Assembly: GCA_016700375.1 (NCBI GenBank)
Contig: CP065016.1
Coordinates: 780,001 to 812,000 of the forward strand
From: Candidatus Saccharimonadota bacterium
GTDB taxonomy: Bacteria > Patescibacteriota > Saccharimonadia > Saccharimonadales > UBA4665
DNA length: 32,000 nucleotides
Direction: 5' to 3'
The notes under the pieces were generated by a model. The model searched no databases, was not told the origin of the DNA, and was given only the letters and a program-made list of their open reading frames with translations. Position 1 is the stretch's first letter. Every line of letters starts with the position of its first letter. Below, piece by piece: positions 3,381 to 29,650 of the stretch. Made by a program: the position numbers and the translations under genes.

Positions 3381-6149
3381 TTATGGGCGTTTTTTGCGAT
3401 TATTGTTATTTGGGGTTGCACCAGGCAAGACTGAAGCATGGCGGCTACGTTTCGTGGCCTGCTTCCGAGCTGTACGCGCACGCTTATCTCTTAGCCAGTG
3501 CACTGCTTTGCCAAGCCCGCGAAGGGCAACGTCCTCGTCATCCTCAATATATGCACCGACTACTTCCTGTCCTGCTTCTAAGGACGCTTCTTGATCGGCT
3601 CTATGTGTTGGACGGAGCAAACCGGGTCCCCGTAGCGCTGGATTTGTGCTTCCCGGTCCTGCTGGTGTAAGTCGCTCGGCATTAGTAGCAAATGGATCGG
3701 GCTGACCTACCTGAATAACAACGGCTGCCTTTTCTCTAAAGTTTCGACCAGGCGCTCCAGTGTCAGGATTTCTACCTTCCTGACCATATTCTTCAATAAA
3801 TCGTTGAGCAGCTTCTCGAGGGTCACCTTCTGTCTCCAAGATATCTCGTATGCTTACATTGTTCTCGCTATACCGGCGCGTTGCTGCATCATCACGCGGT
3901 ACATCACCGTCGCCGAATATACCGGCAGAAGTTATGAGTATTTTATCGCCTCTTTCAAGTGCCCGAACAGCGATTTCATGGCCATTTCGAGTGACATGAG
4001 CGACAAGGTCATCGCCTTCAAAGGCATCAGCTAACGTGCCGTCGCGGTAGACTGCAGCCATGCCATGACCCGCACGAGCTGCAACTAAATGAGGTTTCCC
4101 ATTTACCTCTATGATACGGGTGAGTACTCCTTCAGCATCATTTCGCTCACCATGCAAGGCAGTCGCATTCGCGCTACGCTGCATGGCTTCATGCAGCTGT
4201 GTCATAGCGTCTTCTATAGTACGGGGTTGGGGTTGGTTTTCAAGGTATAGGCGCGCTCTTTGTTGAGCGGCTTCGGCGGGGCTACGACCGCTTCTCACAT
4301 CGGCGTTTTTAAGTAAATTGTAAGCACTGTATATGCCTCGCGCATCATCAGCTCCACTAAAAGCATGTGGACTGAAATCTGTACGACTGAATGATTCCCT
4401 TGTGCGACGAAATGTTCTGCCCTGACCGGAGCGAATATCGAGTGGACGAGGTTTCATTACCTCGCCATACTGCAAGAGAATTGCAGATTTATCTGCGCCT
4501 GTTCTCCCTAAGGTGCAACATAATTCCGCTGCACGCTCGGCGGACTTTGCATCTGAACCATTTCCAAGCGCCGCCACCGTAAACACATCTCCATATTCAC
4601 GGAGAAGCTGGCTAGGCAAGTTCATGCTACGAGCGTCCCTGTCTTTTTGCTTATCACTTAAGGTGCCACCCGAAGCAAGAAGGACCATGTCCCCAGGCTG
4701 AAGCTCAACACTAAAGAAGCCTCCTTCATTTCCATCAACATGGTGCGGATGTCCGAAGCCATCAGCCATATACGTTCCAGTTTCTTGGGTTTTTCCTATA
4801 GGGGTTAGCTGTCCATTTCGCCAAAGCATGATAGGCGAGTTTCCAATGCTTCCTGTTATGAGGTAATCCTTCCCTTCTATGTGCTCAACCTTTGCAACAG
4901 TGGCAGACGAAACTCCGCCACTACCGTCACGAGGTAATGTTTCTTGGGTATGCATAAATGCCGCCTTCATCCGTGCCGCGGCCTCAGCAGGGCTCTCGGG
5001 TTGACCTTCTTCTTGAGCATAGAAGTCCCTTATAGCTTTTTCGGCTTGTCTGGTAGCGTTTTGTGCATTGCTTGTTTCGCTCAGCCCACCAAAAACAGCA
5101 TACAATCCGCGTTCATCTATGTGCCTATCTTCACCGCGAGGCGTACGCTCTTTTGCAACCGAACGAAGTGGGTGATTTAGTTTTCTTACTTCTGGGGTTT
5201 TTTTACGCTCCGATGCTTTCGGACTGTCTTGCGCTGGTTCAGGTTTTGTAGGCTCCGTTTGTTCCCCACCTTTTTTAGCAGCGGCTTCCGCTGCCTTTTT
5301 TCCAGCTTCGTTGTGCCCATATAGCCGGGCCCCGACGTCTTTCGGCAATACCGTTTCTGTCACATTGCCTGAAGCGTCTGTTTCCACTAACGTGTACTCG
5401 GCGTAGGGAGCACCACTTGGCGCAGTTTTTTCAGTCCTAGTCACGCAACCCGCAAGCGCATCAAGCTCCCCTTCTTCCTCTCGAGTCAGCAAGGACGGCT
5501 TCCCTTTTCCGGGGTGCCTTCTTGTCAGTAAATCTCTCACCCCGTCATATCCATCACCTGAGGTCTTGGTCTCCGGCGCAGACGCACCAGAAGTGGACGG
5601 TTTAGGATTGCCCGACCCAGTTGGGGGAGCATGCTTTTTTGAGTTAGTTGGACGACCGCTCCCGGTTCTTGCGGTGCCCCGAGGAGGCTCTGTGCCAACA
5701 GGTTTTGGCGCGGTCCAGCCCGAAGGAGTTGAACTACCTGTCTCTGTATTATCCTGTGGGCTCCACTGGCGCCTATAGTCCAAAAGTGCCTGCCCAACGG
5801 TAGGATTGAGTTCCTCCTCACGGGGCTTCCCGTCTTGGCCGGTTGTCGTGCGGAAAAATAAAGTTTGTGGCCCCATGACAACTTCATCGCTATCACTGGC
5901 TGCAGAACCATCCTCAATATACACCGTCTCGGTCCTGACTCCGGCTGCAAGTTTGTCTAGGGCTGCAAGGTCATCTGGTGGCTGGGCGCCTGTGCGAGCC
6001 CCATCCGCAACCCGAAGCATTGTAGCTTGCAGATCATCAACCAATTCGGGAGTGAATGGTCCGGCAAACCTGTCTGCAGGGTCAACGATAGGTCCGGCCT
6101 GGTCGGTCGGGTCTATTGCGGGTGTGATTCCTTCGCCTGGTGCTGCCAT
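3381..6149 (-). CDS. 922-aa hypothetical protein: disordered P/G/S/T/K-rich N-terminal third, two degenerate PP2C/SpoIIE-like modules, strongly basic C-terminal tail
   Basis: Uninterrupted 2.77-kb ORF. A PP2C-like motif order occurs twice (GLYAVFGG.. / ITGSIGNSPIMLWRNGQL / GDMVLLASGG / ADKSAILLQY, and again AARAGHGMAAVYRDGTL / GDKILITSAG / KAAVVIQV), with the usual metal-binding Asp residues replaced. The tail is ..RDKRARTARKQATKRSRH...NRKKRP. No signal peptide is evident. Confidence 0.7.
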   Translation of the reverse strand: MAAPGEGITPAIDPTDQAGPIVDPADRFAGPFTPELVDDLQATMLRVADGARTGAQPPDDLAALDKLAAGVRTETVYIEDGSAASDSDEVVMGPQTLFFRTTTGQDGKPREEELNPTVGQALLDYRRQWSPQDNTETGSSTPSGWTAPKPVGTEPPRGTARTGSGRPTNSKKHAPPTGSGNPKPSTSGASAPETKTSGDGYDGVRDLLTRRHPGKGKPSLLTREEEGELDALAGCVTRTEKTAPSGAPYAEYTLVETDASGNVTETVLPKDVGARLYGHNEAGKKAAEAAAKKGGEQTEPTKPEPAQDSPKASERKKTPEVRKLNHPLRSVAKERTPRGEDRHIDERGLYAVFGGLSETSNAQNATRQAEKAIRDFYAQEEGQPESPAEAAARMKAAFMHTQETLPRDGSGGVSSATVAKVEHIEGKDYLITGSIGNSPIMLWRNGQLTPIGKTQETGTYMADGFGHPHHVDGNEGGFFSVELQPGDMVLLASGGTLSDKQKDRDARSMNLPSQLLREYGDVFTVAALGNGSDAKSAERAAELCCTLGRTGADKSAILLQYGEVMKPRPLDIRSGQGRTFRRTRESFSRTDFSPHAFSGADDARGIYSAYNLLKNADVRSGRSPAEAAQQRARLYLENQPQPRTIEDAMTQLHEAMQRSANATALHGERNDAEGVLTRIIEVNGKPHLVAARAGHGMAAVYRDGTLADAFEGDDLVAHVTRNGHEIAVRALERGDKILITSAGIFGDGDVPRDDAATRRYSENNVSIRDILETEGDPREAAQRFIEEYGQEGRNPDTGAPGRNFREKAAVVIQVGQPDPFATNAERLTPAGPGSTNPALRGPGLLRPTHRADQEASLEAGQEVVGAYIEDDEDVALRGLGKAVHWLRDKRARTARKQATKRSRHASVLPGATPNNNNRKKRP

Positions 6150-6288
6150 GATTGTTATCTATTCCTAAGAGGTTATGATATTTTTTTGTTTTGTGTTTTA
6201 ACATGTGTATATTAGCAAATCTTAAGCATTTTGTCAACTATATAGACCTGTGTTTGCGGGTATGTCAAATGTTTTACAACGATTAGTT

Positions 6289-6297
6289 TGGTATACT
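6289..6297 (+). promoter_or_regulatory. Extended -10 (TGgTATACT), 8 nt before the tsaD ATG
   Basis: ttTGgTATACTcgtaccagATG. Confidence 0.45.
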
Positions 6298-6305
6298 CGT
6301 ACCAG

Positions 6306-7373
6306 ATGAGAGTTCTAGGTATCGAGACAAGTTGTGATGAAACTGCAGCGAGCGTTGTCGAAGACGGGTATAGGCTGCTTTCGAATGTGGTTGCCAGCAG
6401 TGCCGACTTGCAGGCGCAGTACGGTGGTGTGGTGCCTGAAATAGCGGCGCGAAGCCATATAGAGGCCGTTAATTCCGTGGTGGATGCAGCTATAACAGAG
6501 AGCGGTTCCACCTGGGACGATATAGACGCTATAGCCGTAACGTACGGTCCGGGCTTGGGCGGTTCCCTGCTCATAGGTGTACTAACTGCTCGGACGCTTG
6601 CAATCACATATGATAAACCTTTGTATGCTATTAACCACGTCGAAGCACACGTATACGCTAACTTCCTAACAGAAGATAACAATCAACCAACTACCAACTA
6701 CCAACTACCAACTACGCAGCCCGTTTTCCCCATGCTCGCTATTATCGTCAGCGGGGGGCATTGTCAACTCGCGGTATTCAGAGACCATTTTGATTACACC
6801 CTGCTGGGAGAAACTGGCGACGATGCCGTAGGAGAAGCGTTTGATAAGGTAGCGAAAATGCTTGGGTTCCCCTACCCTGGCGGCCCAAAGATTAGTCAGA
6901 TCGCCAAAAAGGGCAACCCATATGCCTTCGATTTCCCAAAAGCTAAGATGAGTAAATACGACTTTAGTTACTCTGGGCTCAAAACAGCCGTACTACGGAC
7001 GGCTCAAGAGCTAATCGGCGAAGACCATACATTTCCGTCAAAAAACCTGCCAAAACGCCTCTCTGAGGCTCAGAAGGCCGATATTGCTGCGAGTTTCCAG
7101 CATGTGGCTATAGAAACAATTGTCGATAAGGCGCTTCAAGCATACGAAGAGTTTTCGCCTGCCAGTGTTGTCATAGCTGGCGGCGTGGCAGCCAGCCCAG
7201 AGCTGCGCCGCCAGCTCGCCGAAAGACTCCCTTGCCCCATTGCCTACACCGACCCACGCCTGTGTACCGACAACGGCGCCATGATAGCCACGCTGGGCTG
7301 TTTTCACATGAAACAGGCGCGCCCCACCGCCAACCCCTACAGCCTAGACATACAGCCAAACCTGAGCATGTAA
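6306..7373 (+). CDS. tsaD: tRNA N6-adenosine threonylcarbamoyltransferase TsaD (Kae1/Gcp family)
   Basis: MRVLGIETSCDETAASVV, GPGLGGSLLIGV, HVEAH and SGGH motifs. ATG at 6306 is preferred over the track TTG at 6288. Confidence 0.9.
   Translation: MRVLGIETSCDETAASVVEDGYRLLSNVVASSADLQAQYGGVVPEIAARSHIEAVNSVVDAAITESGSTWDDIDAIAVTYGPGLGGSLLIGVLTARTLAITYDKPLYAINHVEAHVYANFLTEDNNQPTTNYQLPTTQPVFPMLAIIVSGGHCQLAVFRDHFDYTLLGETGDDAVGEAFDKVAKMLGFPYPGGPKISQIAKKGNPYAFDFPKAKMSKYDFSYSGLKTAVLRTAQELIGEDHTFPSKNLPKRLSEAQKADIAASFQHVAIETIVDKALQAYEEFSPASVVIAGGVAASPELRRQLAERLPCPIAYTDPRLCTDNGAMIATLGCFHMKQARPTANPYSLDIQPNLSM
6687..6714 (+). repeat. 4 x CCAACTA heptamer tandem repeat inside tsaD
   Basis: ccaacta ccaacta ccaacta ccaacta, read directly. 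It encodes part of NNQPTTNYQLPTTQ between the HVEAH region and the SGGH motif. Confidence 0.9.
7301..7373 (+). repeat. Direct repeat copy 1 (in-use 3' end of tsaD)
   Basis: 67/73 identical to 8036..8108. Confidence 0.9.
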
Positions 7374-7631
7374 TTATCCGTACAGCTGACTGTGTGTGCC
7401 TACCTGGTCAAACACAGCTTCATCACCAGATTCAAAATATACAGCGCGGATATCACCACTAATATCTATGCTGCGGTATCCGCTCCATTTTCCCCTCAGA
7501 CGATGATTGCGTAATTGCGTATGTAATGGGTTTTGTGCAAATAGAGCCAACCTGGCTTCAAGTTTCTGTCGCTCAGCAGCACGAAGCAGTTTAGCCCGAT
7601 TAACAAAACCTTTTGTAAGGCGAATATTCAT
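7374..7631 (-). CDS. RelE/YafQ-family type II toxin (mRNA interferase)
   Basis: 85 aa. LRNHRLRGKWSGYRSIDISGDIRAVY....VGTHSQLYG matches the H-L-G...D-R..Y...G-H-Y pattern of RelE/YafQ toxins. It has a 4-bp ATGA overlap with the upstream antitoxin. Confidence 0.8.
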   Translation of the reverse strand: MNIRLTKGFVNRAKLLRAAERQKLEARLALFAQNPLHTQLRNHRLRGKWSGYRSIDISGDIRAVYFESGDEAVFDQVGTHSQLYG

Positions 7632-7909
7632 GAGAGCTGTTCGTGCAGGAAAGCTAACGCTTCATCATTGGAATCAAACTTGTAGTAATCCCCTGCCTCA
7701 ATCTCTTTACGAGACTTTTCCATCAGTTTGGCAGTTTTAGCATTGGGAATCTCTGGCAGCTCAAACGTCACACTTCGCTCACGCGCAAATCGATGCAGCT
7801 CGTTATTGAGCACAGCGCTTACACTCACACCCAGTTCATCTGCAATTTTCTGTACTGTTTTTTTCAAAACAGGATCTGTTTTAAGATTAATAACCGCATA
7901 ATTACTCAT
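7628..7909 (-). CDS. RelB/DinJ-family antitoxin
   Basis: MSNYAVINLKTDPVLKKTVQKIADELGVSVSAVLNNELHRFARERSVTFELPE resembles the DinJ N-terminal RHH domain. The start at 7909 sits 6 nt after a consensus -10 box (track start 7948 is less likely). Confidence 0.75.
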   Translation of the reverse strand: MSNYAVINLKTDPVLKKTVQKIADELGVSVSAVLNNELHRFARERSVTFELPEIPNAKTAKLMEKSRKEIEAGDYYKFDSNDEALAFLHEQLS

Positions 7910-7915
7910 ACCAAA

Positions 7916-7944
7916 AGTATACACCGAGTATATACTCATGTCAA
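7916..7944 (-). promoter_or_regulatory. TTGACA-17-TATACT promoter of the TA operon with internal 12-bp palindrome GAGTATATACTC (candidate operator)
   Basis: The minus strand reads gTTGACAtGAGTATATACTCggtgTATACTtttggtATG. Confidence 0.6.
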
Positions 7945-8035
7945 ACAAGCTTGAGCATCATGCCTTCTTTTCGTCATTTCCAGCCCAATCAGAAGTCTCG
8001 TAGCGTCATAATGCTAGATGCGCAATGAATTCCCA

Positions 8036-8108
8036 TTTTCACATGAAACTAGCCCGCCCCACCGCCGACCCTTACAGCCTAGACATACAGCCAAACCTGA
8101 GCATGTAG
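8036..8108 (+). repeat. Direct repeat copy 2 (orphan tsaD 3'-end fragment, reading frame preserved)
   Basis: It would encode FHMKLARPTADPYSLDIQPNLSM*, compared with FHMKQARPTANPYSLDIQPNLSM* in tsaD. Confidence 0.9.
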
Positions 8109-8125
8109 GCTTCATCTCCCAGGGG

Positions 8126-8134
8126 TGGTACAAT
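8126..8134 (+). promoter_or_regulatory. Extended -10 (TGgTACAAT), 7 nt before the valS ATG
   Basis: ggTGgTACAATagtaggtATG. Confidence 0.45.
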
Positions 8135-8141
8135 AGTAGGT

Positions 8142-10712
8142 ATGCAGCTACCAAAAGTCTATGAACCAGGCGAGTACGAAACAGATATCTACGATTTATG
8201 GGAGAAGAGTGGAGCATTTGTGCCAGAAAAGCGAGGCGGTAAAGACAACTTTGCCATGGTTTTTCCGTTACCAAACGCCAACGGTAACCTTCACCTAGGT
8301 CACGGACTCACCAACGCCATTTACGACGTTGTTATTCGATACCAGCGCATGAAGGGAAATGCCGCACTCTATTTGCCGGGGGCAGACCATGCCGGGTTTG
8401 AAACACAGGTCGTATATGAAAAGAAGCTTGCCGCAGAAGGGAAGAGCCGCTTTGACTTTACCCGCGAAGAACTCTACACGCAGGTGTATGACTTCGTGCA
8501 GCAGAACAAACACAACTTCGAAAACCAGTTCCGCCGCCTCGGCGCCAGCTGCGACTGGAGCCGGTACGTCTTTACCCTAGACGAGAAAATCATTACGCGC
8601 GCCTACGCAACATTCAAACAACTATGGGATGACGGCCTGGTGTATAGAGGCGAGCGTCTGGTGAATTTCTGTACCCACCACGGTACTGCATTTGCCGACA
8701 TAGAGGTCGAGCACAAGGAAGTTTCGAGCAAACTCTGGCACATCCGCTATCCGCTCGTAGACGGCAGCGGGGAAGTGGTGGTAGCAACGACACGGCCAGA
8801 AACCATGCTCGGCGACACCGGTGTTGCCGTGCACCCTGACGACGAGCGCTATAGTGTCTTCATTGGCAAAACTGTCCGCTTGCCACTGGTAGGTAGGGAA
8901 GTACCCATTATAGCCGACGAGTTTGTCGAGCTTACATTTGGTACCGGCGCTGTAAAACTCACGCCAGCTCACGACCAAAACGACTACGATGCCGCCGAAA
9001 GACATGCGCTTCCAAAAATAACCATCATTAGCCACGAAGGAAAAATAACCGACGAAGCGCCCGAAAAGTACCGCGGTCTGAATGTCCTCGAGGGCAGGGA
9101 AGCGGTCGTACGTGACCTTGAAAACGAAGGATTTCTCGTGAAAACCGAAGATTTCACGCACAATGTCGGCCACTGTTACAAGTGCGGTACCGTCATAGAA
9201 CCAATCCTAAGGGAACAGTGGTTTATAGATATGCAACCGCTCGCGAAAGAAGCCATCAAAGCCCTCAAGGCCGACAAAATTCGTTTTTACCCGAGCGGCA
9301 AGCGCGACCAGCTTATTACCTACCTAGAAGGGCTTCGTGACTGGAACATAAGCCGGCAGATTGCCTGGGGTATACCTATACCCGCCTTCCAGAACGTCAA
9401 CGACCGCGACGATTGGATTTTTGATGACCGTGTCGACCAAGAAATACTAGAGCTGGACGGCAAAACGTATCACCGCGACCCAGATGTTTTCGACACCTGG
9501 TTTAGTAGCTCCAGCTGGCCATATGCAACACTCGACTTTCCAGACGGCGACGACTTCCACCAGTTCTACCCAACTGGTTTGCTCGACACCGGCGGCGAGA
9601 TTTTGTACCCGTGGGTCAGCCGCATGGTCATGCTTGGTCTATACGTGACTGGCGACGTACCGTTCCGAGAAGTATACATCCACGGCTACGTCATGGCGGA
9701 AGACGGTTCCAAAATGAGCAAAAGCCTTGGCAACGTTATTGACCCGCTACCCGTTATGGACAAATACGGGTCAGACGCTCTGCGCATGGGTTTGCTTGCC
9801 GGACGAAGTCCAGGGGTAAACCGAGGCTACGATAGCCGCAAGGTAGAAGAGGCGCGCAATTTCTGTAATAAGCTGTGGAATATATCTCGCTACACCCTCG
9901 AGCGGCTCGGCGAACTCACCGAAGAGCCTAACCACGAGCCGAAGACCGATGCTGAACACTGGGTGTTGAGCAAGTTACAACATACAACAGAAGTAGTGAG
10001 TGAACATTTGGAAGCATACCGCTTCAGTGAAGCCTACGATACGCTGTACCACTTTGTGTGGGACGATGTAGCCGACTGGTATATCGAAGCCAGCAAAACT
10101 ACGGAGGGCGGGGGAGTGCTCGCCTACGTTCTCGAGAACGTTCTAAAGCTTGCCCACCCGTTTGCGCCGTTCGTAACAGAGACTATTTGGCAGGTCGTAC
10201 CCTGGACGGGCACGAGCATTCTGGCCATTCAAGATTGGCCAAAAACATTTAAAACAGACAAAAAAGCCGCAGCTGACTTCGAAGAAATACAAACCATTGT
10301 CACTGAAGTACGCGCCCTTATTCGCAGCCTGGGGCTCAGGAAACCACACCTGTACTACACCGACGTACCATTCCTCTCAACTAACGCCGAGCTCATTTGT
10401 CGCTTGACCGGGCTCGACGGCGTGCGCGAGGTTACACACGGCAACGGGCTGCATTTGACTTCTACCGCCCATTCCTGCTGGCTCGACGTCGACAGCGAGA
10501 TTGCGGCCGCTCACCTTGAACAGCTTGGTGCCCAAATAAGCGCCGCGTCGGCACGAATTGCCCATCTGCACAGCCGTCTGAACAACGAAAATTACACAAA
10601 ACACGCTCCGAAAGAAGTTGTGCGTGAAACTGAAGCCCAGTTATCTGAGGCCGAAACCACCCTTGCGCGCCTGAAAACCGAGCAACTCCGTTTTGCCGAC
10701 CTGCGTGAATAG
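8142..10712 (+). CDS. valS: Valine--tRNA ligase
   Basis: 856 aa with the HIGH-type motif PNANGNLHLGHG, KMSKS, an editing-domain-sized insertion and a C-terminal coiled-coil-like region. Confidence 0.92.
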   Translation: MQLPKVYEPGEYETDIYDLWEKSGAFVPEKRGGKDNFAMVFPLPNANGNLHLGHGLTNAIYDVVIRYQRMKGNAALYLPGADHAGFETQVVYEKKLAAEGKSRFDFTREELYTQVYDFVQQNKHNFENQFRRLGASCDWSRYVFTLDEKIITRAYATFKQLWDDGLVYRGERLVNFCTHHGTAFADIEVEHKEVSSKLWHIRYPLVDGSGEVVVATTRPETMLGDTGVAVHPDDERYSVFIGKTVRLPLVGREVPIIADEFVELTFGTGAVKLTPAHDQNDYDAAERHALPKITIISHEGKITDEAPEKYRGLNVLEGREAVVRDLENEGFLVKTEDFTHNVGHCYKCGTVIEPILREQWFIDMQPLAKEAIKALKADKIRFYPSGKRDQLITYLEGLRDWNISRQIAWGIPIPAFQNVNDRDDWIFDDRVDQEILELDGKTYHRDPDVFDTWFSSSSWPYATLDFPDGDDFHQFYPTGLLDTGGEILYPWVSRMVMLGLYVTGDVPFREVYIHGYVMAEDGSKMSKSLGNVIDPLPVMDKYGSDALRMGLLAGRSPGVNRGYDSRKVEEARNFCNKLWNISRYTLERLGELTEEPNHEPKTDAEHWVLSKLQHTTEVVSEHLEAYRFSEAYDTLYHFVWDDVADWYIEASKTTEGGGVLAYVLENVLKLAHPFAPFVTETIWQVVPWTGTSILAIQDWPKTFKTDKKAAADFEEIQTIVTEVRALIRSLGLRKPHLYYTDVPFLSTNAELICRLTGLDGVREVTHGNGLHLTSTAHSCWLDVDSEIAAAHLEQLGAQISAASARIAHLHSRLNNENYTKHAPKEVVRETEAQLSEAETTLARLKTEQLRFADLRE

Positions 10713-13731: not shown

Positions 13732-14574
13732 ATGTCTCGTTCAAAATGTTCTCGTGAGCTGTACTGCTCATTCCTGGAGGTCACCTCCTCACGGTATTCT
13801 GCGCTCAGCTTGAGCGAAGTAGCCCCAGACAATGCCATGCTCTCTCACGACAGCGTCTCCCGTTGGCTAGCATCTGAAAAGATACAGCCCAAAGACCTGT
13901 GGCAAGCTGCCGCTTAAGGAAGTTCGCGCCACTCCTGGCATTTTGGTCTTCGATGATGTCGTCATCGACAAAAGCCGAAGCGGCAAGATGGAGCTTGTGA
14001 ACTGGCAGCATGCGGGAAGTAAGCATGACATCACCAGAGGGATTGGCGTTGTAAATGCGTTGTGGCAAGTAGATACAGAACACTACATTCCTATGGACTA
14101 CCGCATCTGGAACCCGCCAGAAGACGGCAAGACTAAGAATGATCACTTCCAGGATATGCTGAGTAGCACAAGACAGAGAGGGCTACGCCCGGAGATGGTT
14201 GTTGCGGATAGCTGGTACGGCTCTCTAAAAAACCTTAAGGCAGTTCGCTCTCATGGCTGGGACTGGGTCATGGGGCTGAGGAGCAACCGGTTAGTCGGTA
14301 AGCCACATATCCAGCTCAGAGAGTTAGATATACCAGATACAGGCTTGGTGACATATCTGAAAGGCTATGGGTGGATCAGAGTCTTCCGGTTTGAGGCCAG
14401 TAACGGCCGCACGGATTATGTTGGTACAAGTCGTACTGACCTCACCCGCGAACAAGTCAAGAAATACTTCGAGCGCCGTTGGAGTGTCGAGGTACTGCAT
14501 CGAGAGCTCAAACAAACCTGTGGCTTATCCCGCTGTCAGGCCAATCTTAGCCGAGCCCAAAGAAACCACATTGG
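13732..14574 (+). pseudogene. IS701/IS4-superfamily DDE transposase, frameshifted and 3'-truncated
   Basis: VFDDVVIDKS, VVADSWYGS and YFERRWSVEVLHRELK (a Y-2-R-3-E-6-K-like signature). The frame changes near 13900 (stop at 13915-13917). The ORF is cut after ..QRNHIG by the IS starting at 14575. Confidence 0.75.
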
Positions 14575-15650
14575 GAGTTATAGGCAAAAACGTGTTGGTT
14601 TTCTCCCCTCGCTTCGTGTATAAAGGTACCAATTAACAAGCACTCGTTGGTGCTCACGAGACATGCCTCTATGGTACTTTAGTTTGGTTCGGATTTGGCT
14701 GTTCATGCCACCCTCAACATGGTTTGTGGTGCTTGGCAGTTCTGCGTGTGGTCGGTAGCTTGAACGAAGCGCATCATCTGTGACTTTATCGAGCTGACGG
14801 TAGGCACTACGGAGTCGTTCGTGGGTGTACCGCCAGCTCCTTTCTCTTGGTTTTGGGTAAGGTTTTACGGTTCGTTCGTTGACATAGTTTTGGTGCCGCT
14901 TGTACCAACGTCTTAGTCTTTGTTTCCAGTGCCTGGCATGTTTTCGTGTCCTAACATGGAGCAAATCTTTGGTGAGTACGAGCAGCTCTTTTCCTGCAAT
15001 TGACTCAGGATGCAGTGTCAGTTTTGTTTTTACATTAAGCCAGATATGGAATCGACAGCGCTGGACGATCGTACCAGGCCAACAGAGGGGAAGAGCCTTC
15101 AGGAGGCCTTTCTGGCCGTCACAAACAACGTAGGTAGGTGCAGGCAGTGAGGCGAGGAACGTGGCCCAGTATGTACTACTTTCGTATGGTACCCACATCC
15201 AGGCAATAACAAACATAGTCGTTCGGGCAATGAGGCAGACGTGGCCGCTAACACGGATGCCATCAACGATGACACAGTGATGACATTCACCCCTCAGCAC
15301 ACTCGGCACGGGCACGCCCCAGCACCAGGCAGTCTGGTCACGAAACGTTCGGCTAGCCGCAGCTAAGTCGTCCTGAGAATCCTTGCCGAGCAACCAAGAC
15401 ATGAATCCCTCAAACACAAACACTCGCCGTAAGTCTGGTCGTGGCTTTGTGGCTGTGAGGCTACACACAGGACACCTCCATCGCTGCTTCCCAGCACCTG
15501 TCTTGCCCCATTTCTGGAGCTTAGTTTTACACACACGACAATAGCGAAAACCTCTCTGTTTCATAGGTAAGTAATGTCTACCGACATTACTTATGAGTCA
15601 ATAACAGAGGTAAAAGTGGTGAAACACCAACACGAGGGTGCCTATAACTC
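14575..15650 (-). mobile_element. IS element copy 1 (1076 bp), no target-site duplication
   Basis: Co-linear with 22534..23609 (offset 7959) and, as far as I can read, identical to it. The terminal IRs are GAGTTATAGGCA(N4)CGTGTTGGT. The flanks cacattgg and cgtgtttg do not match. Confidence 0.9.
14578..15564 (-). CDS. DDE transposase with N-terminal CxxC..CxxC zinc ribbon and MULE/IS256-like core
   Basis: 328 aa with YCRVCKTKLQKWGKTGAGKQRWRCPVC, VIVDG, VVCDGQKGL...QRCRFH and TNHVEGGMNSQIR. The family assignment (IS256-like versus IS1-like) is uncertain. Confidence 0.88.
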   Translation of the reverse strand: MKQRGFRYCRVCKTKLQKWGKTGAGKQRWRCPVCSLTATKPRPDLRRVFVFEGFMSWLLGKDSQDDLAAASRTFRDQTAWCWGVPVPSVLRGECHHCVIVDGIRVSGHVCLIARTTMFVIAWMWVPYESSTYWATFLASLPAPTYVVCDGQKGLLKALPLCWPGTIVQRCRFHIWLNVKTKLTLHPESIAGKELLVLTKDLLHVRTRKHARHWKQRLRRWYKRHQNYVNERTVKPYPKPRERSWRYTHERLRSAYRQLDKVTDDALRSSYRPHAELPSTTNHVEGGMNSQIRTKLKYHRGMSREHQRVLVNWYLYTRSEGRKPTRFCL

Positions 15651-21795: not shown

Positions 21796-21806
21796 GCGCA
21801 TTTTCT

Positions 21807-21931
21807 TGGCGGAGGGGGAGGGATTCGCCTCGGGCCTTCTGCCTGACCACTCAGATTGCCACCGGCAATCTTCGGGCTTCGGGGCGGGGAGTGCCACAGG
21901 CACTCCCGTTCTCATCCCGTCCCAGGTCAAA
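21807..21931 (-). other. tRNA-Ser(CGA) 3'-end copy (T-arm and acceptor, 3-nt T-loop deletion) preceded by two perfect hairpins
   Basis: 21807-21827 matches 21966-21986 at 20/21, then continues with CCTCG after a missing AAC. Hairpins lie at 21854-21870 (7 bp) and 21887-21907 (9 bp). No 5' acceptor strand is present, so it is not a tRNA. Confidence 0.55.
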
Positions 21932-21932
21932 T

Positions 21933-21962
21933 AAAAAAGCCCGCCTTTTGGCGGGCTTTTTT
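21933..21962. terminator. Bidirectional rho-independent terminator
   Basis: aaaaaAGCCCGCCttttGGCGGGCTttttt. Confidence 0.8.
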
Positions 21963-21965
21963 ATT

Positions 21966-22057
21966 TGGCGGAGAGGGAGGGATTCGAACCCTCGATAGAG
22001 TTGCCCCTATACTACATTTCGAGTGTAGCGCACTAGACCGGACTATGCGACCTCTCC
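21966..22057 (-). tRNA. tRNA-Ser (anticodon CGA), CCA encoded
   Basis: The 92-nt cloverleaf was read by hand: acceptor GGAGAGG/CCTCTCC, anticodon loop CTCGAAA, long variable arm, T-loop GGTTCGAATCC. Confidence 0.9.
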
Positions 22058-22533: not shown

Positions 22534-23609
22534 GAGTTATAGGCAAAAACGTGTTGGTTTTCTCCCCTCGCTTCGTGTATAAAGGTACCAATTAACAAGC
22601 ACTCGTTGGTGCTCACGAGACATGCCTCTATGGTACTTTAGTTTGGTTCGGATTTGGCTGTTCATGCCACCCTCAACATGGTTTGTGGTGCTTGGCAGTT
22701 CTGCGTGTGGTCGGTAGCTTGAACGAAGCGCATCATCTGTGACTTTATCGAGCTGACGGTAGGCACTACGGAGTCGTTCGTGGGTGTACCGCCAGCTCCT
22801 TTCTCTTGGTTTTGGGTAAGGTTTTACGGTTCGTTCGTTGACATAGTTTTGGTGCCGCTTGTACCAACGTCTTAGTCTTTGTTTCCAGTGCCTGGCATGT
22901 TTTCGTGTCCTAACATGGAGCAAATCTTTGGTGAGTACGAGCAGCTCTTTTCCTGCAATTGACTCAGGATGCAGTGTCAGTTTTGTTTTTACATTAAGCC
23001 AGATATGGAATCGACAGCGCTGGACGATCGTACCAGGCCAACAGAGGGGAAGAGCCTTCAGGAGGCCTTTCTGGCCGTCACAAACAACGTAGGTAGGTGC
23101 AGGCAGTGAGGCGAGGAACGTGGCCCAGTATGTACTACTTTCGTATGGTACCCACATCCAGGCAATAACAAACATAGTCGTTCGGGCAATGAGGCAGACG
23201 TGGCCGCTAACACGGATGCCATCAACGATGACACAGTGATGACATTCACCCCTCAGCACACTCGGCACGGGCACGCCCCAGCACCAGGCAGTCTGGTCAC
23301 GAAACGTTCGGCTAGCCGCAGCTAAGTCGTCCTGAGAATCCTTGCCGAGCAACCAAGACATGAATCCCTCAAACACAAACACTCGCCGTAAGTCTGGTCG
23401 TGGCTTTGTGGCTGTGAGGCTACACACAGGACACCTCCATCGCTGCTTCCCAGCACCTGTCTTGCCCCATTTCTGGAGCTTAGTTTTACACACACGACAA
23501 TAGCGAAAACCTCTCTGTTTCATAGGTAAGTAATGTCTACCGACATTACTTATGAGTCAATAACAGAGGTAAAAGTGGTGAAACACCAACACGAGGGTGC
23601 CTATAACTC
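22534..23609 (-). mobile_element. IS element copy 2 (1076 bp) with 8-bp target-site duplication ATTATTCC
   Basis: Same sequence as 14575..15650. ATTATTCC is found at 22526-22533 and at 23610-23617. Confidence 0.92.
22537..23523 (-). CDS. DDE transposase (identical to the 14578..15564 product)
   Basis: The 328-aa translations in the track are identical. Confidence 0.88.
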   Translation of the reverse strand: MKQRGFRYCRVCKTKLQKWGKTGAGKQRWRCPVCSLTATKPRPDLRRVFVFEGFMSWLLGKDSQDDLAAASRTFRDQTAWCWGVPVPSVLRGECHHCVIVDGIRVSGHVCLIARTTMFVIAWMWVPYESSTYWATFLASLPAPTYVVCDGQKGLLKALPLCWPGTIVQRCRFHIWLNVKTKLTLHPESIAGKELLVLTKDLLHVRTRKHARHWKQRLRRWYKRHQNYVNERTVKPYPKPRERSWRYTHERLRSAYRQLDKVTDDALRSSYRPHAELPSTTNHVEGGMNSQIRTKLKYHRGMSREHQRVLVNWYLYTRSEGRKPTRFCL

Positions 23610-25551: not shown

Positions 25552-25641
25552 GGAGAGATGTCCGAGCGGTTGAAGGAGCTTGTCTTGAAAACAAGTGTGC
25601 CGGCAACGGTACCGTGGGTTCGAATCCCACTCTCTCCGCCA
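25552..25641 (+). tRNA. tRNA-Ser (anticodon UGA), CCA encoded
   Basis: 90-nt cloverleaf with anticodon stem CTTGT/ACAAG, loop CTTGAAA and a long variable arm. Confidence 0.92.
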
Positions 25642-25712
25642 TACAAACTGTGTATGCCCCGAAGGGGTATATGGAATTTGTATGCTGAGTGAGCGGGTGC
25701 ACGAGCCTTCCT

Positions 25713-25822
25713 AGGTTCGGCGGACGAGGAACGCAGCTACAAACGTGCTTGCATGTTTATAGCGAGTACCACAGGGAGGAGGGCGAGCTGGAAGCTCGCC
25801 CGATATCCCTCGCTCTCCGCCA
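25713..25822 (+). repeat. tRNA-Ser-3'-end-like structured module, copy A
   Basis: It begins AGGTTCG and ends ATCCCTCGCTCTCCGCCAA. It is 105/109 identical to copy B. Confidence 0.8.
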
Positions 25823-25953
25823 AGTTAACAAATGCCACGCCGTCTGATAAAATAACGGCAAGCATTCCCGCAGAAAGGGAAAAGAGCAGCCCGACAAAAT
25901 GGTTCACATTTTGTCGGCGCGATGAGAAAAACCGCAGGTTTGTCTCATGCCCC

Positions 25954-26046
25954 GGAGAGGTACCCAAGTGGCTGAAGGGGACGGTTTGCTAAATCGTTAG
26001 AGGGGCGAGAGTCCCTGCGAGGGTTCGAATCCCTCTCTCTCCGCCA
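25954..26046 (+). tRNA. tRNA-Ser (anticodon GCU), CCA encoded
   Basis: 93-nt cloverleaf with anticodon loop TTGCTAA and a long variable arm. Confidence 0.92.
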
Positions 26047-26053
26047 AGTAAAT

Positions 26054-26084
26054 AGAGTCTGCTCGAAAGGGTAGGCTCTTTTTA
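26054..26084 (+). terminator. Terminator hairpin after tRNA-Ser(GCU)
   Basis: AGAGTCTGC..GTAGGCTCT followed by ttttt. Confidence 0.7.
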
Positions 26085-26116
26085 CTTGGCCTGAGATGGG
26101 GTGAGAACACTCGCCC

Positions 26117-26228
26117 GAGGGTTCGGCGGACGAGGAACGCAGCTATAAACGTGCTTGCATGTTTATAGCGAGTACCGCAGAGAGGAGGGCGAGCTGGAAG
26201 CTCGCCCGATATCCCTCTCTCTCCGCCA
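26117..26228 (+). repeat. tRNA-Ser-3'-end-like structured module, copy B
   Basis: It begins GAGGGTTCG and ends ATCCCTCTCTCTCCGCCA, which is identical over 18 nt to the 3' end of tRNA-Ser(GCU). Confidence 0.8.
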
Positions 26229-26235
26229 AAGAAAT

Positions 26236-26270
26236 AGAGTCTGGCTGAAAAAGCTAGGCTCTCTTTCTTT
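26236..26270 (+). terminator. Diverged second copy of the tRNA-Ser(GCU) terminator hairpin
   Basis: AGAGTCTGGC-tgaaaaa-GCTAGGCTCT followed by ctttcttt. Compare 26054-26084. Confidence 0.5.
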
Positions 26271-27718: not shown

Positions 27719-28679
27719 TGTTAGAAAACCTCGCGTTGTTTAACTTTTCCAGCTTCCTTCATAGGCCGCTCGTACTGGTAAAAGTACTCACATAGTCGCT
27801 CGAGCGGCGTCGCCTTGTCAATGCCTTTGTGTGGGCGTACACAGTTGTAGTAATTCACAAACCTGGTAAGGGCTTTGGCTCGCTCCTCACGACTGTTAAA
27901 TACCTCGGCGTTATGCCAGCTCTCCATTAGTGTTCGGATGGCTCGTTCGGCTTTGCCATTCGTCTGCGGACACTTCACTTTGGTGAACTTCTGGGTGATG
28001 CCAGCCTCGCCACAGGCTTTCATGAAAGCATGTTCACCGTAACGGCCTTTGTACTCGGTGCCATTGTCGGTTAAGATTCGTTCAATACCATAGGGGCATT
28101 GAGCCAGTACAGTACTGAGGAAATCCGCGCTACTGAACATGCTCTTGTCGGGGTAGATACCAACGTACAGCTCTCTTGAGTAGTCATCAATAGCCACAAA
28201 CAGATATTCATGGCCGTCCAGCTTCGTTTCGCCCGTAAGTAGTGGTAGACGTTTAGTATCCATATGCAACATCTCGCCTGGATAGTCTTTCTCGTAACGT
28301 TTGGCAGTCCGGGCTAGTTTATCTTGGATTGATCGCTCAATTTTGCCCAGCCGCTTTAAGCCGTACTCCAGGCATTGGTAGCGTTTGTTAGTACTGACGT
28401 GCAGGCTGTAGTCATCCCGCCGAGCCCGAGTGAGGATCTTTTGTATAGTGGGGTAGGACACCCCATATTTGGCAATGAGATCTTTCTTACGTAAGTTGAG
28501 GACAAAATAATCCTCTGCCAATGCTTTACGTTGAAACGGCATGAGCCGTGTTCGTTTATGTACTACCATAGTGGTAGCCTCCTCTCGTTGGGTTAGTTAG
28601 TTGGTTGTACTCTAACTTTTACCATGGAGGAGGCTACTTTGGTTGTCTAGAAAGTTAAATAACGCTCGGGGATTTTACA
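27719..28679 (-). mobile_element. IS481-family insertion sequence (961 bp) with 7-bp TSD TCTAACC
   Basis: The ends are TGT...ACA. The imperfect ~29-bp IRs share GCGTT(G/A)TTTAACTTT. TCTAACC is found at 27712-27718 and 28680-28686. Confidence 0.85.
27721..28569 (-). CDS. IS481-family DDE (rve-type integrase core) transposase
   Basis: 282 aa with an N-terminal HTH, then HMDTK, AIDDYSR, LTDNGTEY and PQTNGKAER. Confidence 0.9.
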   Translation of the reverse strand: MVVHKRTRLMPFQRKALAEDYFVLNLRKKDLIAKYGVSYPTIQKILTRARRDDYSLHVSTNKRYQCLEYGLKRLGKIERSIQDKLARTAKRYEKDYPGEMLHMDTKRLPLLTGETKLDGHEYLFVAIDDYSRELYVGIYPDKSMFSSADFLSTVLAQCPYGIERILTDNGTEYKGRYGEHAFMKACGEAGITQKFTKVKCPQTNGKAERAIRTLMESWHNAEVFNSREERAKALTRFVNYYNCVRPHKGIDKATPLERLCEYFYQYERPMKEAGKVKQREVF

Positions 28680-28680
28680 T

Positions 28681-29130
28681 CTAACCTGATGTTCCTAGGT
28701 TACTTGCCTTTGAAAGCACAAATCGGACAATGAATTGCGCCAGAGCAACTATAACAAGACCAATAAGTGCGTAGATGATGGTATTTTTTGCGGTGGTAAT
28801 CTTGCCGCTATCGCCGCCAGAGGTAATGTAGCGGAGACCACCCCAAATAATCATAATGACCGCGAGGAAGCCCACGACTATTGAAAATATATTTACAATG
28901 AGCTTGATGACGTTTGTAATATCAGTATTTCCTGTGCCGGCATCATTTGACGTTGAGAGACAGTCTTCGCCTATTGCTCCGTTGATGTCTACACCTTGAC
29001 CAACACACTCACCTATATCCACTGCGTATACAGCGACCGGCGCTACCAACGGTGCTGCGACAAGTAAGGCACCCGCAAGAAAGCTGGCGATTTTAATGCG
29101 TATTTTACTAATCATCTTGAAGCCTTTCAT
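28681..29130 (-). CDS. TrbC/VirB2-like (T4SS-type) pilin paralog 1
   Basis: A signal-like N-terminus (..APVAVYA/VD), a variable region with a Cys pair, then two TM helices flanking LRYITSGGDSGKITTAKN. Confidence 0.75.
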   Translation of the reverse strand: MKGFKMISKIRIKIASFLAGALLVAAPLVAPVAVYAVDIGECVGQGVDINGAIGEDCLSTSNDAGTGNTDITNVIKLIVNIFSIVVGFLAVIMIIWGGLRYITSGGDSGKITTAKNTIIYALIGLVIVALAQFIVRFVLSKASNLGTSG

Positions 29131-29178
29131 TTATTGCTTTACTTATGTTTATACCACTTGTGGTAGATACTTTCAATC

Positions 29179-29646: not shown

Positions 29647-29650
29647 ACTT

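What the first reader, a model, noticed from the sequence alone, without database searches (positions are those of the whole stretch)
7301..8108. Toxin-antitoxin cassette inserted at the 3' end of tsaD and bracketed by a 73-bp duplication of that gene end
7301-7373 (the in-use tsaD 3' end including its stop) and 8036-8108 are 67/73 identical direct repeats. The second copy keeps the reading frame and a stop codon (FHMKLARPTADPYSLDIQPNLSM*). Its changes are mostly conservative or synonymous. The 662 bp between the repeats hold only the RelE/YafQ-DinJ pair with its own consensus promoter. The valS promoter begins right after copy 2. This looks like a site-specific insertion that carried a replacement gene end, as integrative elements do at tRNA genes, yet no integrase is present. 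It echoes the 3'-end duplications seen at the tRNAs.
Basis: partly seen in the sequence, partly recalled or inferred. Interest (0 to 1): 0.6.

Follow-up and report, generated by a model that had tools for sequence, protein, structure and literature searches.

The report
Toxin-antitoxin islet bracketed by tsaD ends
A small toxin-antitoxin gene pair sits behind the essential gene tsaD in a Saccharibacterium, flanked by two versions of that gene's last 73 bases. This is a clear footprint of how such selfish gene pairs get into a chromosome without breaking the gene, but it resembles known cases and no dedicated insertion enzyme is visible.

Summary
Positions 7301-7373 and 8036-8108 are 67/73 identical direct repeats, and they occur nowhere else in the window. 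The 662 bp between them hold only a YafQ/RelE-type toxin, a RelB/DinJ antitoxin, their near-consensus promoter and a 90-bp orphan spacer.

Related Saccharibacteria show an empty site (tsaD-67 bp-valS), sites with other cargo and no repeat, and nine independent assemblies with the same repeat at the same 735-bp spacing. Among 172 tsaD loci, the second copy occurs only with this TA pair.

The two copies are different alleles found in the population. Copy 2 matches the native ends of TA-free relatives and keeps their TAG stop. Copy 1 belongs to the more divergent 3' half of tsaD and ends in a new TAA that abuts the toxin stop. This is recombination between genomes, not a duplication in place.

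No integrase or integrase remnant was found anywhere. A more distant lineage carries the homologous TA in the same gap with no repeat. Sister lineages carry a Fic cassette at the other end of tsaD with a duplicated 5' end.

I favour one-sided homologous plus illegitimate recombination (about 0.5) over a decayed integrase element (about 0.25). It is a new variant of a known kind and of moderate interest.

The parts
6306..7373 (+). tsaD, the gene in use (355 aa from the ATG at 6306). Its 3' half is more divergent from TA-free relatives than its 5' half.
   Evidence: Pfam TsaD, 3.7e-87. Identity to the TA-free relative L169 is 93-98% over 5278-6627 and 87-94% over 6928-7373.
7301..7373 (+). Repeat copy 1: the tsaD 3' end in use. 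It ends in a new TAA stop directly abutting the toxin stop (TAATTA).
   Evidence: It has 6 mismatches to the native end of L169, against 2 for copy 2. The same allele type (CTGGCGCGC...CCCGTAC) is a native end in TA-free L177.
7374..7631 (-). Toxin, 85 aa, YafQ/RelE-family mRNA interferase.
   Evidence: PF15738, 43.7 bits (cut-off 30); TIGR02385, 32.9 (cut-off 27.9). PDB relatives are HP0894 (4ls4, 1z8m) and YafQ (4ml2, 4q2u), with the C-terminal GTHSQLY aligned to GSHSELF.
7628..7909 (-). Antitoxin, 93 aa, RelB/DinJ family. Its stop overlaps the toxin start (ATGA).
   Evidence: PF04221, 30 bits (cut-off 22.4). There are 235 homologues, mostly labelled RelB/DinJ, and many are from Saccharimonadales.
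7916..7944 (-). TA promoter TTGACA-17-TATACT, with a perfect 12-bp palindrome GAGTATATACTC (7927-7938) between the hexamers. The palindrome is a probable antitoxin operator.
   Evidence: Promoter scan, 11 of 12. The palindrome was read. The stretch is 100% conserved in L081 and L171.
7946..8035 (.). 90-bp spacer of unknown origin between the TA promoter and copy 2. Its right end is the novel junction with the stranded tsaD end.
   Evidence: It has no homologue outside the window-type loci among 187 loci, by blastn or tblastx.
8036..8108 (+). Repeat copy 2: the stranded native end of the resident tsaD (TAG stop). It is a decaying relic.
   Evidence: It is 97.3% identical to the real tsaD end of TA-free L169, which equals the genomic background identity. 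Its last codon is M in the window, R in L081-85 and I in L171, whereas Met is the last residue in 118 of 120 real TsaDs. It has no secondary structure (z = 0.17).
8126..8134 (+). valS extended -10 element TGGTACAAT, 7 nt before the valS ATG at 8142. This is the native valS promoter, unaffected by the insertion.
   Evidence: It was read. GGTGGTACAAT is conserved upstream of valS in L169, L171, L174 and L181.
8142..10712 (+). valS, the downstream core gene that bounds the variable spot.
   Evidence: Pfam tRNA-synt_1, Anticodon_1 and Val_tRNA-synt_C. tsaD-valS synteny is conserved in Saccharibacteria with a gap of 67 bp to 3.3 kb.

Best explanation
What it is. This is a 662-bp type II toxin-antitoxin islet lodged in the variable spot between the core genes tsaD and valS of a Saccharibacterium. 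It holds a YafQ/RelE-type ribosome-dependent mRNA nuclease and a RelB/DinJ antitoxin, transcribed from their own promoter, which probably regulates itself.

How it arose. The two 73-bp repeats are two different population alleles of the tsaD 3' end. The most likely event was as follows. DNA from a related strain, in which the TA pair already abutted tsaD, recombined into a genome that lacked it. The left crossover was homologous, inside tsaD. The right end of the incoming DNA (the 90-bp spacer) was joined illegitimately 73 bp before the stop of the resident tsaD. This is homology-facilitated illegitimate recombination (HFIR), which is plausible after DNA uptake in naturally competent Saccharibacteria.

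The result is a complete hybrid tsaD whose last part came with the cassette, followed by the TA pair, followed by the stranded original gene end in front of the untouched valS promoter.

Why it persists. In most bacteria where it has been tested tsaD is essential, so only products that keep one complete copy are likely to survive. Deletion by recombination between the repeats would remove an addiction module and is therefore counter-selected. The relic is decaying, and it has since served as a homology patch for further exchanges, as in L171.

Shown here: the anatomy, the empty and alternative sites, the allele origin of the two copies, and the mosaic divergence.

Inferred: the HFIR mechanism, DNA uptake as the route, and addiction as the cause of retention.
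For: 1. Empty site. L174-176 have tsaD-TAG-67 bp-valS. L169/170/177/178/179/180 and L001 carry other minus-strand cargo and no repeat.

2. Among 172 tsaD loci, a second copy of the C-terminal coding segment occurs only in TA-bearing window-type loci.

3. The same architecture, with identical 735-bp spacing, is present in L081-085 and L171-173, which come from different samples and assemblers. It is therefore real and has a single origin.

4. The copies are two alleles. Copy 2 has 2 mismatches to the native end of TA-free L169 (97.3%, the background identity measured over 2.5 kb), while copy 1 has 6. The copy-1 allele type occurs as the native end of TA-free L177. TA-free relatives and copy 2 end in TAG, whereas copy 1 ends in TAA or TGA.

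5. Identity between the window and L169 falls from 93-98% (upstream region and tsaD 5' half) to 87-94% (3' half). This fits a crossover inside tsaD, with the 3' half imported together with the TA pair.

6. The inner repeat boundary is mid-codon and has no motif or secondary structure.

7. Mirror case. In L171-173 a Fic cassette upstream of tsaD is bracketed by a duplicated tsaD 5' end (89 nt, 90% identical). The relic keeps the native promoter, and the copy in use is contiguous with the cassette.

8. Homologous exchange at this locus is rampant. Block-wise mosaics appear in L171, and there are two xenologous valS types among close relatives.

9. No recombinase is present, and the cassette has no hit in IMG/VR, phage or plasmid collections.

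10. Literature. Saccharibacteria are naturally competent (PMC10633639). HFIR is defined in PMC3240628. Transformation aimed at an essential gene yields survivors that keep an intact copy through duplication (PMC3784515). TA islets that sit alone between core genes have an unclear route of entry (PMC13617665).
Against: - The predicted donor arrangement (tsaD abutting the toxin, followed by the 90-bp spacer, with no relic) was not found.
- Microhomology at the illegitimate junction cannot be checked without the donor.
- The allele argument rests on only 3-4 informative sites within 73 nt.
- Foreign DNA flanked by direct repeats of a gene's 3' end is the classical signature of integrase-mediated integration, and decayed elements without an integrase are common.
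- The exact stop-to-stop abutment (0 nt) at the left junction needs a prior deletion or streamlining step in the donor.
- I did not find a documented natural case of HFIR producing a duplication rather than a deletion.
- Recombination at this locus is so frequent that the divergence step inside tsaD could stem from an unrelated event.
Confidence: 0.5

Rival explanations
1. This is the remnant of a site-specific integrative element, equivalent to a CIME. A phage, ICE or IME carrying an attP with a copy of the tsaD 3' end was integrated by its tyrosine integrase, as e14 is at icd. Everything except the addictive TA pair and 90 bp was later deleted, leaving attL (copy 1) and attR (copy 2).
For: The architecture matches exactly. 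There are direct repeats of the target gene's 3' end, the ORF is restored with a new stop, and the native end is displaced distally. Empty sites exist in relatives. The insert has lower GC (0.43 against 0.52). e14/icd-icdC and CIMEs are documented precedents (PMC13626634, PMC5704250). The stepwise streamlining model for TA islets is in PMC13617665. The window also has short inserts bracketed by tRNA-Ser 3'-end copies, which could be similar remnants.
Against: - No integrase gene or fragment was found in the window or in the called genes of the nine TA-bearing assemblies reported here.
- No longer element was seen at tsaD within the flanks fetched (4-6 kb) for 172 loci.
- The cassette and the tsaD-end pattern are absent from IMG/VR, phages and plasmids.
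- The divergent block extends upstream of the repeat into the tsaD body.
- The homologous TA in L181-186 sits in the same gap with no repeat and is as diverged as its flanks, which suggests long residence rather than arrival on an element.
- The Fic and tsaD 5'-end duplication would require a second, independent site specificity.
- A simple independent-integration model fails for L171.
Confidence: 0.25
2. This is a recombinase-free mini-circle cassette. Once the structure exists, RecA recombination between the 73-bp repeats releases a 735-bp circle (TA, spacer and one repeat). That circle can re-enter any tsaD end by a single Campbell-type crossover, so the TA pair spreads as a self-contained cassette that uses the gene end as its landing pad.
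For: The spacing is identical at 735 bp in three diverged haplotype groups. In L171 a crossover point lies inside copy 2: the left 39 nt are cassette-like, while the right 33 nt differ from the window's copy 2 mainly by synonymous codon changes. The Fic cassette has its own 53-58-nt direct repeats, which are more conserved (94-96%) than the gene itself (80%).
Against: This does not explain how the first copy arose. A 73-bp homology is short for RecA. The L171 mosaic also includes the toxin 3' end and the tsaD body, so ordinary homologous exchange explains it. No circle junction can be looked for with these tools.
Confidence: 0.1
3. This is an in-place duplication of the tsaD end (replication slippage or template switching) in a genome that already had the TA pair, followed by divergence of the two copies.
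For: The TA pair appears to be an old resident of this gap, because the L181 lineage is equally diverged in the TA pair and its flanks.
Against: Both copy types exist as native ends in different TA-free genomes (L169/L178 against L177). Copy 2 is closer to other genomes' ends than to its own partner. This points to two genomic sources.
Confidence: 0.05
4. Assembly artefact or chimeric contig.
For: None. It is considered only because the source is probably a metagenome-derived genome.
Against: The same junctions are present in at least nine independent assemblies from different studies and assemblers.
Confidence: 0.01

Closest known systems
e14 prophage / phage 21 at icd of E. coli (icd plus the icdC pseudogene)
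   Same: The insertion lies inside the 3' end of a housekeeping protein gene. The incoming DNA supplies the gene end in use, and the native end is stranded as a short pseudogene at the far side. The two ends differ by a few mostly conservative changes and can recombine (PMC13626634, citing Hill et al. 1989).
   Different: e14 is 15 kb and encodes its integrase and excisionase. Here the insert is 662 bp with only a TA pair and no recombinase, and the divergent tract reaches into the gene body.
CIMEs (cis-mobilizable elements), the decayed ICE/IME remnants that keep attL and attR
   Same: [quoted passage not shown]
   Different: CIMEs are defined relative to a known ICE/IME family whose integrase can act in trans. 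No such family or integrase is known or was found for tsaD in Saccharibacteria.
Chromosomal TA 'islets' between two core genes (Photorhabdus study; Hayes & Van Melderen concept)
   Same: It is a solitary type II TA pair between core genes in a high-turnover spot, with no MGE signature genes. One relative (L182) appears to show toxin erosion (PMC13617665).
   Different: The Photorhabdus examples show short duplicated palindromes like res sites. Here the footprint is a 73-bp duplicated end of an essential gene, and the organism is a reduced-genome epibiont.
Homology-facilitated illegitimate recombination, and transformation-induced duplications at essential genes
   Same: There is one homologous anchor and one illegitimate junction. 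Survival of an insertion at an essential gene depends on keeping an intact copy (PMC3240628, PMC3784515).
   Different: These are laboratory events. They are usually reported with deletions, or with very large tandem duplications between IS repeats, not as a 73-bp relic fixed in a natural lineage.
YafQ-DinJ and HP0894-HP0895 type II TA systems
   Same: The toxin matches the family HMMs and the solved structures, the operon has the antitoxin first, and a palindrome lies in the promoter.
   Different: Only about 30% of the sequence is shared. The antitoxin has no solved relative detectable by sequence. Activity is untested.

Membership tests
Type II TA, RelE/YafQ toxin with RelB/DinJ antitoxin | The toxin matches the family profile above the curated threshold. 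| tested here: met
   PF15738, 43.7 bits (cut-off 30). TIGR02385, 32.9 (cut-off 27.9). TIGR00053 (the YafQ subfamily) scores only 37.1 against 87.25, so this is RelE/YafQ-like and not a strict YafQ equivalog.
Type II TA, RelE/YafQ toxin with RelB/DinJ antitoxin | The antitoxin matches the RelB/DinJ profile. | tested here: met
   PF04221, 30 bits (cut-off 22.4). It falls below the NCBIfam TIGR02384 cut-off (35.4 against 45.65).
Type II TA, RelE/YafQ toxin with RelB/DinJ antitoxin | Bicistronic operon with the antitoxin first, coupled genes and its own promoter with an operator-like palindrome. | tested here: met
   ATGA overlap at 7628-7631. Promoter at 7944-7916(-), 11 of 12 matches. Palindrome GAGTATATACTC at 7927-7938.
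Type II TA, RelE/YafQ toxin with RelB/DinJ antitoxin | Toxicity, and its neutralisation by the antitoxin. | not testable with these tools
   The only support is that the C-terminal GTHSQLY aligns to the conserved GSHSELF of HP0894 and YafQ.
Integrase-mediated integrative element or CIME | Direct repeats (attL and attR) that include the target gene end and restore the ORF. | tested here: met
Integrase-mediated integrative element or CIME | A tyrosine or serine recombinase (or its remnant) in the element, or a related intact element at the same site. | tested here: not met
   None was found in the window, which has only DDE transposases 6 kb or more away. None appears in the nine TA-bearing assemblies or within the flanks fetched (4-6 kb) for 172 tsaD loci. 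IMG/VR, phages and plasmids gave no hit.
Integrase-mediated integrative element or CIME | Excision to a circle, and a precise empty site within the same population. | not testable with these tools
   This needs raw reads or long reads.
HFIR product (one homologous and one illegitimate junction) | A donor-derived tract continuous from within the anchor gene through the heterologous DNA. | tested here: inconclusive
   There is an identity step inside tsaD against L169 (93-98% falling to 87-94%). Copy 1 is of a different allele type from copy 2. The locus is highly mosaic, so other events could have produced this.
HFIR product (one homologous and one illegitimate junction) | An illegitimate junction at an arbitrary site with microhomology to the donor. 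| tested here: inconclusive
   The junction at 8035/8036 is mid-codon with no motif or structure. The donor sequence is unknown, so microhomology cannot be assessed.
Integron gene cassette | An attC site that folds as a single strand, and an IntI integrase. | tested here: not met
   The repeat folds no better than shuffles (z = 0.17). No integrase is present.
DDE transposon insertion | A short target-site duplication (about 2-15 bp, from established knowledge) and terminal inverted repeats. | tested here: not met
   The duplication is 73 bp and imperfect, and the repeat finder reports no inverted repeats at the insert ends.

The most novel reading that the evidence does not exclude
In Saccharibacteria, small addiction modules (this YafQ-RelB pair, and the Fic cassette in sister lineages) may spread without any dedicated recombinase. 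They would recombine into the terminal 70-100 bp of an essential gene, bringing a replacement gene end with them. The stranded relics would then act as portable homology arms for further cassette exchange. If this is general, it would be a concrete mechanism for how solitary TA islets form between core genes. It would also mean that essential-gene termini are preferred landing pads, because selection filters out every other outcome.
Probability: 0.2. Interest if true: 0.7.

Novelty: new variant of a known kind. Interest (0 to 1): 0.42.

Why it matters
How solitary toxin-antitoxin pairs enter chromosomes with no visible mobile-element machinery is still an open question (PMC13617665). This locus keeps an unusually legible footprint. 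It shows a replacement end for an essential gene, the stranded native end, an empty site, alternative cargo, and a relative with the same TA pair but no footprint. It does so in a naturally competent, genome-reduced epibiont lineage. Together with the mirror-image Fic case, it offers a testable model: one-sided homologous recombination filtered by essentiality and locked in by addiction. It also shows that the tsaD-valS junction is a recombination hotspot, where even valS is swapped for a distant allele. If the simpler integrase-remnant reading is correct, the locus is an ordinary decayed island.

Tried and rejected
- Exact-sequence look-ups of the window's own TsaD and toxin found nothing on record.
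- The GTDB species representatives and the JGI metagenomes gave no relative closer than 75% and 69% TsaD identity, and none had the duplication. The informative relatives came only through protein-cluster look-ups.
- The TA cassette has no DNA match in plasmids or phages and no protein match in IMG/VR.
- A degenerate pattern for the tsaD C-terminal coding segment, and the Fic-flanking repeat, are both absent from IMG/VR.
- The 90-bp spacer has no homologue outside the window-type loci by blastn or tblastx.
- More distant homologous TA loci (L088, L187) show no flanking gene-end repeats.
- The repeat has no secondary structure, and no Rfam family apart from tRNAs is present in the window.
- Copy 2 being more conserved between strains than copy 1 (1 difference against 5) is not significant (expected about 4.4 differences, Poisson P about 0.07), so I dropped the idea of a selected function for it.
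- A simple model of independent site-specific integration in L171 was rejected. The supposedly element-derived right half of its copy 1 is only about 64% identical to the window's, and that divergence continues 30 nt into the toxin.
- Other direct repeats from the self-BLAST screen (for example in L130) were inspected and looked unrelated.
Full report
**1. The observation**

Reading 6000-8600 and the repeat search confirm a direct repeat at 7301-7372/3 and 8036-8107/8. A script counts 67/73 identities, with mismatches at repeat positions 15, 16, 19, 32, 37 and 73. A 37-nt core of the repeat occurs only at these two places in the window, and none of 100 shuffles gave two matches.

- Copy 1 is the real 3' end of tsaD (6306-7373; Pfam TsaD 3.7e-87).
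- Copy 2 reads FHMKLARPTADPYSLDIQPNLSM* in frame. Against copy 1 the codon changes are Q->L, N->D, two synonymous changes and TAA->TAG.
- The 662 bp in between contain a YafQ/RelE-family toxin (7374-7631, minus strand), a RelB/DinJ antitoxin (7628-7909, minus strand), and a TTGACA-17-TATACT promoter at 7944-7916 with the palindrome GAGTATATACTC between the hexamers.
- The toxin aligns to HP0894 and YafQ structures, including the C-terminal GxHSxL(F/Y) motif.
- The tsaD stop (TAA, 7371-7373) and the toxin stop (TTA on the plus strand, 7374-7376) are back to back.
- The insert has 43% GC against 52-53% in tsaD and valS.
- valS starts at 8142, behind a conserved TGGTACAAT element at 8126-8134.

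**2. Organism and context**

The closest tsaD loci in GTDB representatives are all Candidatus Saccharibacteria/Saccharimonadales, with at most 75% amino-acid identity. tsaD-valS synteny is conserved there, but the gap ranges from 175 bp to 3.3 kb and carries unrelated genes: FemAB-like, Sua5-like and unknown ORFs. None of these loci has a duplicated tsaD end.

The window has no tyrosine or serine recombinase. Its transposases are of the DDE type and lie 6 kb or more away. They are two 99%-identical IS256-like copies, one IS4-like and one IS3-like.

**3. Closer relatives, found through protein-cluster look-ups**

(a) Same architecture. L081-L085, from several sequencing runs and two NCBI assemblies, are 93-98% identical to the window all along tsaD-TA-relic-valS. 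Both repeats sit at the same 735-bp spacing.

(b) L171-173 also have the two repeats 735 bp apart, but the copies are only 53/73 identical. Copy 2 is followed by an extra 159-aa ORF before valS. These loci are mosaics relative to the window:
- the tsaD 3' region plus the last 30 nt of the toxin are strongly diverged, and in the toxin part all those changes are synonymous;
- the rest of the TA pair, the spacer and the first ~39 nt of copy 2 are 94-96% identical;
- the right part of copy 2 is again strongly diverged.

(c) Empty site. L174-176 have tsaD-TAG-67 bp-valS.

(d) Other cargo with no repeat. A 413-431-aa minus-strand ORF occupies the gap in L169/170/177/178/179/180, and a 205-aa ORF does so in L001.

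(e) L181-186 form a lineage about 70% identical to the window in tsaD, the TA pair and valS alike. They carry the homologous TA pair in the same gap with no duplication: tsaD-TAG, 116 bp, toxin, antitoxin, promoter, about 50 bp, valS.

(f) A tblastn of the TsaD C-terminus against 172 tsaD loci finds a second copy only in the window-type TA loci.

No relative has the duplication without the TA pair, and the repeat is not a dispersed family.

**4. Which copy is which**

TA-free relatives end tsaD with TAG, as copy 2 does. Copy 1 ends in TAA (window and L081 type) or TGA (L171).

- Copy 2 has 2 mismatches to the native end of TA-free L169. That is 97.3% identity, the same as the background identity between the two genomes over 2.5 kb upstream.
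- Copy 1 has 6 mismatches to the same L169 end.
- The copy-1 allele type (CTGGCGCGC...CCCGTAC, seen in L081) is itself the native end of another TA-free genome, L177.

The two copies are therefore two alleles circulating in the population, brought together by recombination between genomes. They are not a duplication in place.

The last codon of copy 2 is Met in the window, Arg in L081-85 and Ile in L171. Met is the C-terminal residue in 118 of 120 real TsaDs. Copy 2 is therefore a decaying relic.

Window-to-L169 identity is 93-98% upstream and in the 5' half of tsaD, but 87-94% in the 3' half. This suggests that the imported tract starts inside tsaD and runs through the TA pair to 8035.

**5. 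A mirror-image case**

A self-BLAST of all fetched loci showed the following.

- In L171-173 a Fic-family gene lies just upstream of tsaD. It is flanked by 58-nt direct repeats and, outside them, by a duplicated tsaD 5' end (3411-3499 against 5001-5089, 90% identical).
- The upstream relic keeps the native tsaD promoter (91.5% identical to window 6176-6305). The 5' end in use is contiguous with the cassette.
- In L181-183 Fic is flanked by perfect 53-nt repeats, and there is no tsaD relic.
- These repeats are 94-96% conserved between lineages in which Fic itself is only 80% identical.

Two different addiction-type genes, at the two ends of the same essential gene, thus show the pattern of a cassette plus a replacement gene end plus a stranded native end. 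In both cases the L181 lineage shows the plain intergenic version.

**6. Mechanism**

The classical explanation is an integrase-borne attP that carries the gene end, as with e14 at icd (PMC13626634), followed by decay to an integrase-less CIME-like remnant (PMC5704250). The addictive TA pair would be the last survivor (the model of PMC13617665). The architecture fits this explanation, but several results count against it:
- no recombinase or fragment of one is seen anywhere;
- no fuller element exists at this site in any collection searched;
- the divergent tract extends into the gene body;
- the TA pair looks like an old resident of the gap;
- the Fic case would need a second site specificity.

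I therefore favour one-sided homologous recombination with an illegitimate far junction (HFIR, PMC3240628). A donor fragment of tsaD 3' half, TA pair and spacer pairs within tsaD, and its heterologous end is joined 73 bp before the resident stop. tsaD is needed for the t6A tRNA modification and is essential in most bacteria where it has been tested; this comes from established knowledge and was not tested here. Products likely survive only if one complete copy remains, which is the selective logic shown experimentally for essential genes in PMC3784515. Saccharibacteria are naturally competent (PMC10633639). Loss by recombination between the repeats would trigger post-segregational killing, if the module is active.

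Two weaknesses remain. The predicted donor allele was not observed, and the allele evidence rests on few sites.

My estimates are:
- HFIR-type origin, 0.5
- integrase remnant, 0.25
- RecA-driven mini-circle cassette, 0.1
- in-place duplication, 0.05
- artefact, 0.01

**7. Function**

The module is most likely a ribosome-dependent mRNA endonuclease neutralised by a labile antitoxin that also represses the promoter through the palindrome. This follows from family membership and was not tested.

It is convergent with tsaD, and no terminator is predicted, so the transcripts may overlap. valS keeps its own promoter, with TGGTACAAT 7 nt before the ATG, which implies a leaderless or nearly leaderless mRNA. 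This explains why an insertion between tsaD and valS is tolerated.

**8. Novelty and verdict**

The finding is real and well delimited. It is a new variant of known kinds: TA islets, and gene-end-restoring insertions. What is new is the minimal size, the absence of any recombinase, the population-allele evidence, the companion Fic case, and the setting in a CPR bacterium. It is not a new principle. Interest is 0.42. The more novel reading is recombinase-free spread of addiction modules through the termini of essential genes. It has a probability of about 0.2 and would merit about 0.7.

Noticed in passing
L171:3411-5089 (also L172, L173); L181:7182-8613 (also L182, L183); L085:2037-2083: A Fic/DOC-family gene just upstream of tsaD is flanked by 53-58-nt direct repeats (ACGTTTACAATTTTGTAAACGATTGTAAGTGAATTGTAAACGTCGTA). 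The repeats contain a palindrome and are 94-96% conserved between lineages in which Fic is only 80% identical. In L171-173 there is also an outer duplication of the tsaD 5' end (89 nt, 90% identical), with the native promoter left on the relic. The window lacks all of this.
   Followed up: partly
window 8142-10712, compared with L169:7429-10137 and L174:6232-8877: valS exists as two deeply different alleles (49% amino-acid identity) among genomes that are otherwise 84-99% identical in the neighbouring HTH-HAD gene and 97% identical upstream of tsaD. valS itself has therefore been swapped for a distant allele at this hotspot.
   Followed up: partly
window 25552-26250 and 21801-22057: Each of the two tRNA-Ser genes (tga and gct) is followed about 75 nt downstream by a 110-nt repeat unit (25714-25823 and 26120-26229, 96% identical). 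The unit ends in a copy of the tRNA-Ser 3' end (...ATCCCTCTCTCTCCGCCA) plus the downstream hairpin. tRNA-Ser(cga) has a partial 3'-end copy 159 bp downstream. No Rfam family matches. These could be att-type remnants or a small tRNA-like element.
   Followed up: partly
window 14578-15564(-) and 22537-23523(-); 13943-14623(+); 27721-28569(-): There are two 99%-identical IS256/Mutator-type transposase genes (one next to tRNA-Arg), plus an IS4-like DDE transposase and an IS3-like (rve) transposase. Insertion sequences therefore look recently active in this small genome.
   Followed up: partly
window 6679-6720 (inside tsaD): A low-complexity tandem repeat (ACCAACTACCAACTAC, encoding NQPTTNYQLPTT) sits in a TsaD surface insert. 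This insert varies greatly in length and sequence among relatives (TsaD of 353-450 aa), and it is the most divergent part of the gene (70-75% identity even to close relatives).
   Followed up: no
L182:5312-5488: In one assembly of the L181-type lineage the toxin gene is called as only 58 aa instead of 85, while the antitoxin is intact. This may be toxin erosion.
   Followed up: no
window 8025-8108 (and the equivalent positions in L081 and L171): An ATG created at the spacer/relic junction opens a 27-codon mini-ORF (MNSH-FHMKLARPTADPYSLDIQPNLSM*). It is intact in all three diverged haplotype groups. No ribosome-binding site is obvious, so this is probably chance.
   Followed up: no
window 28681-31178(-): An array of four paralogous type IV secretion pilin (VirB2/TrbC-like) genes.
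   Followed up: no
L086 (GCA_029574135.1, JAKQAU010000415.1), last 10 nt: A contig with the window-type tsaD|toxin junction carries a distinct antitoxin allele (about 90% identical). It departs from the window sequence immediately after the TA -35 hexamer, and the contig ends there. It may represent a TA allele without the spacer and relic.
   Followed up: partly
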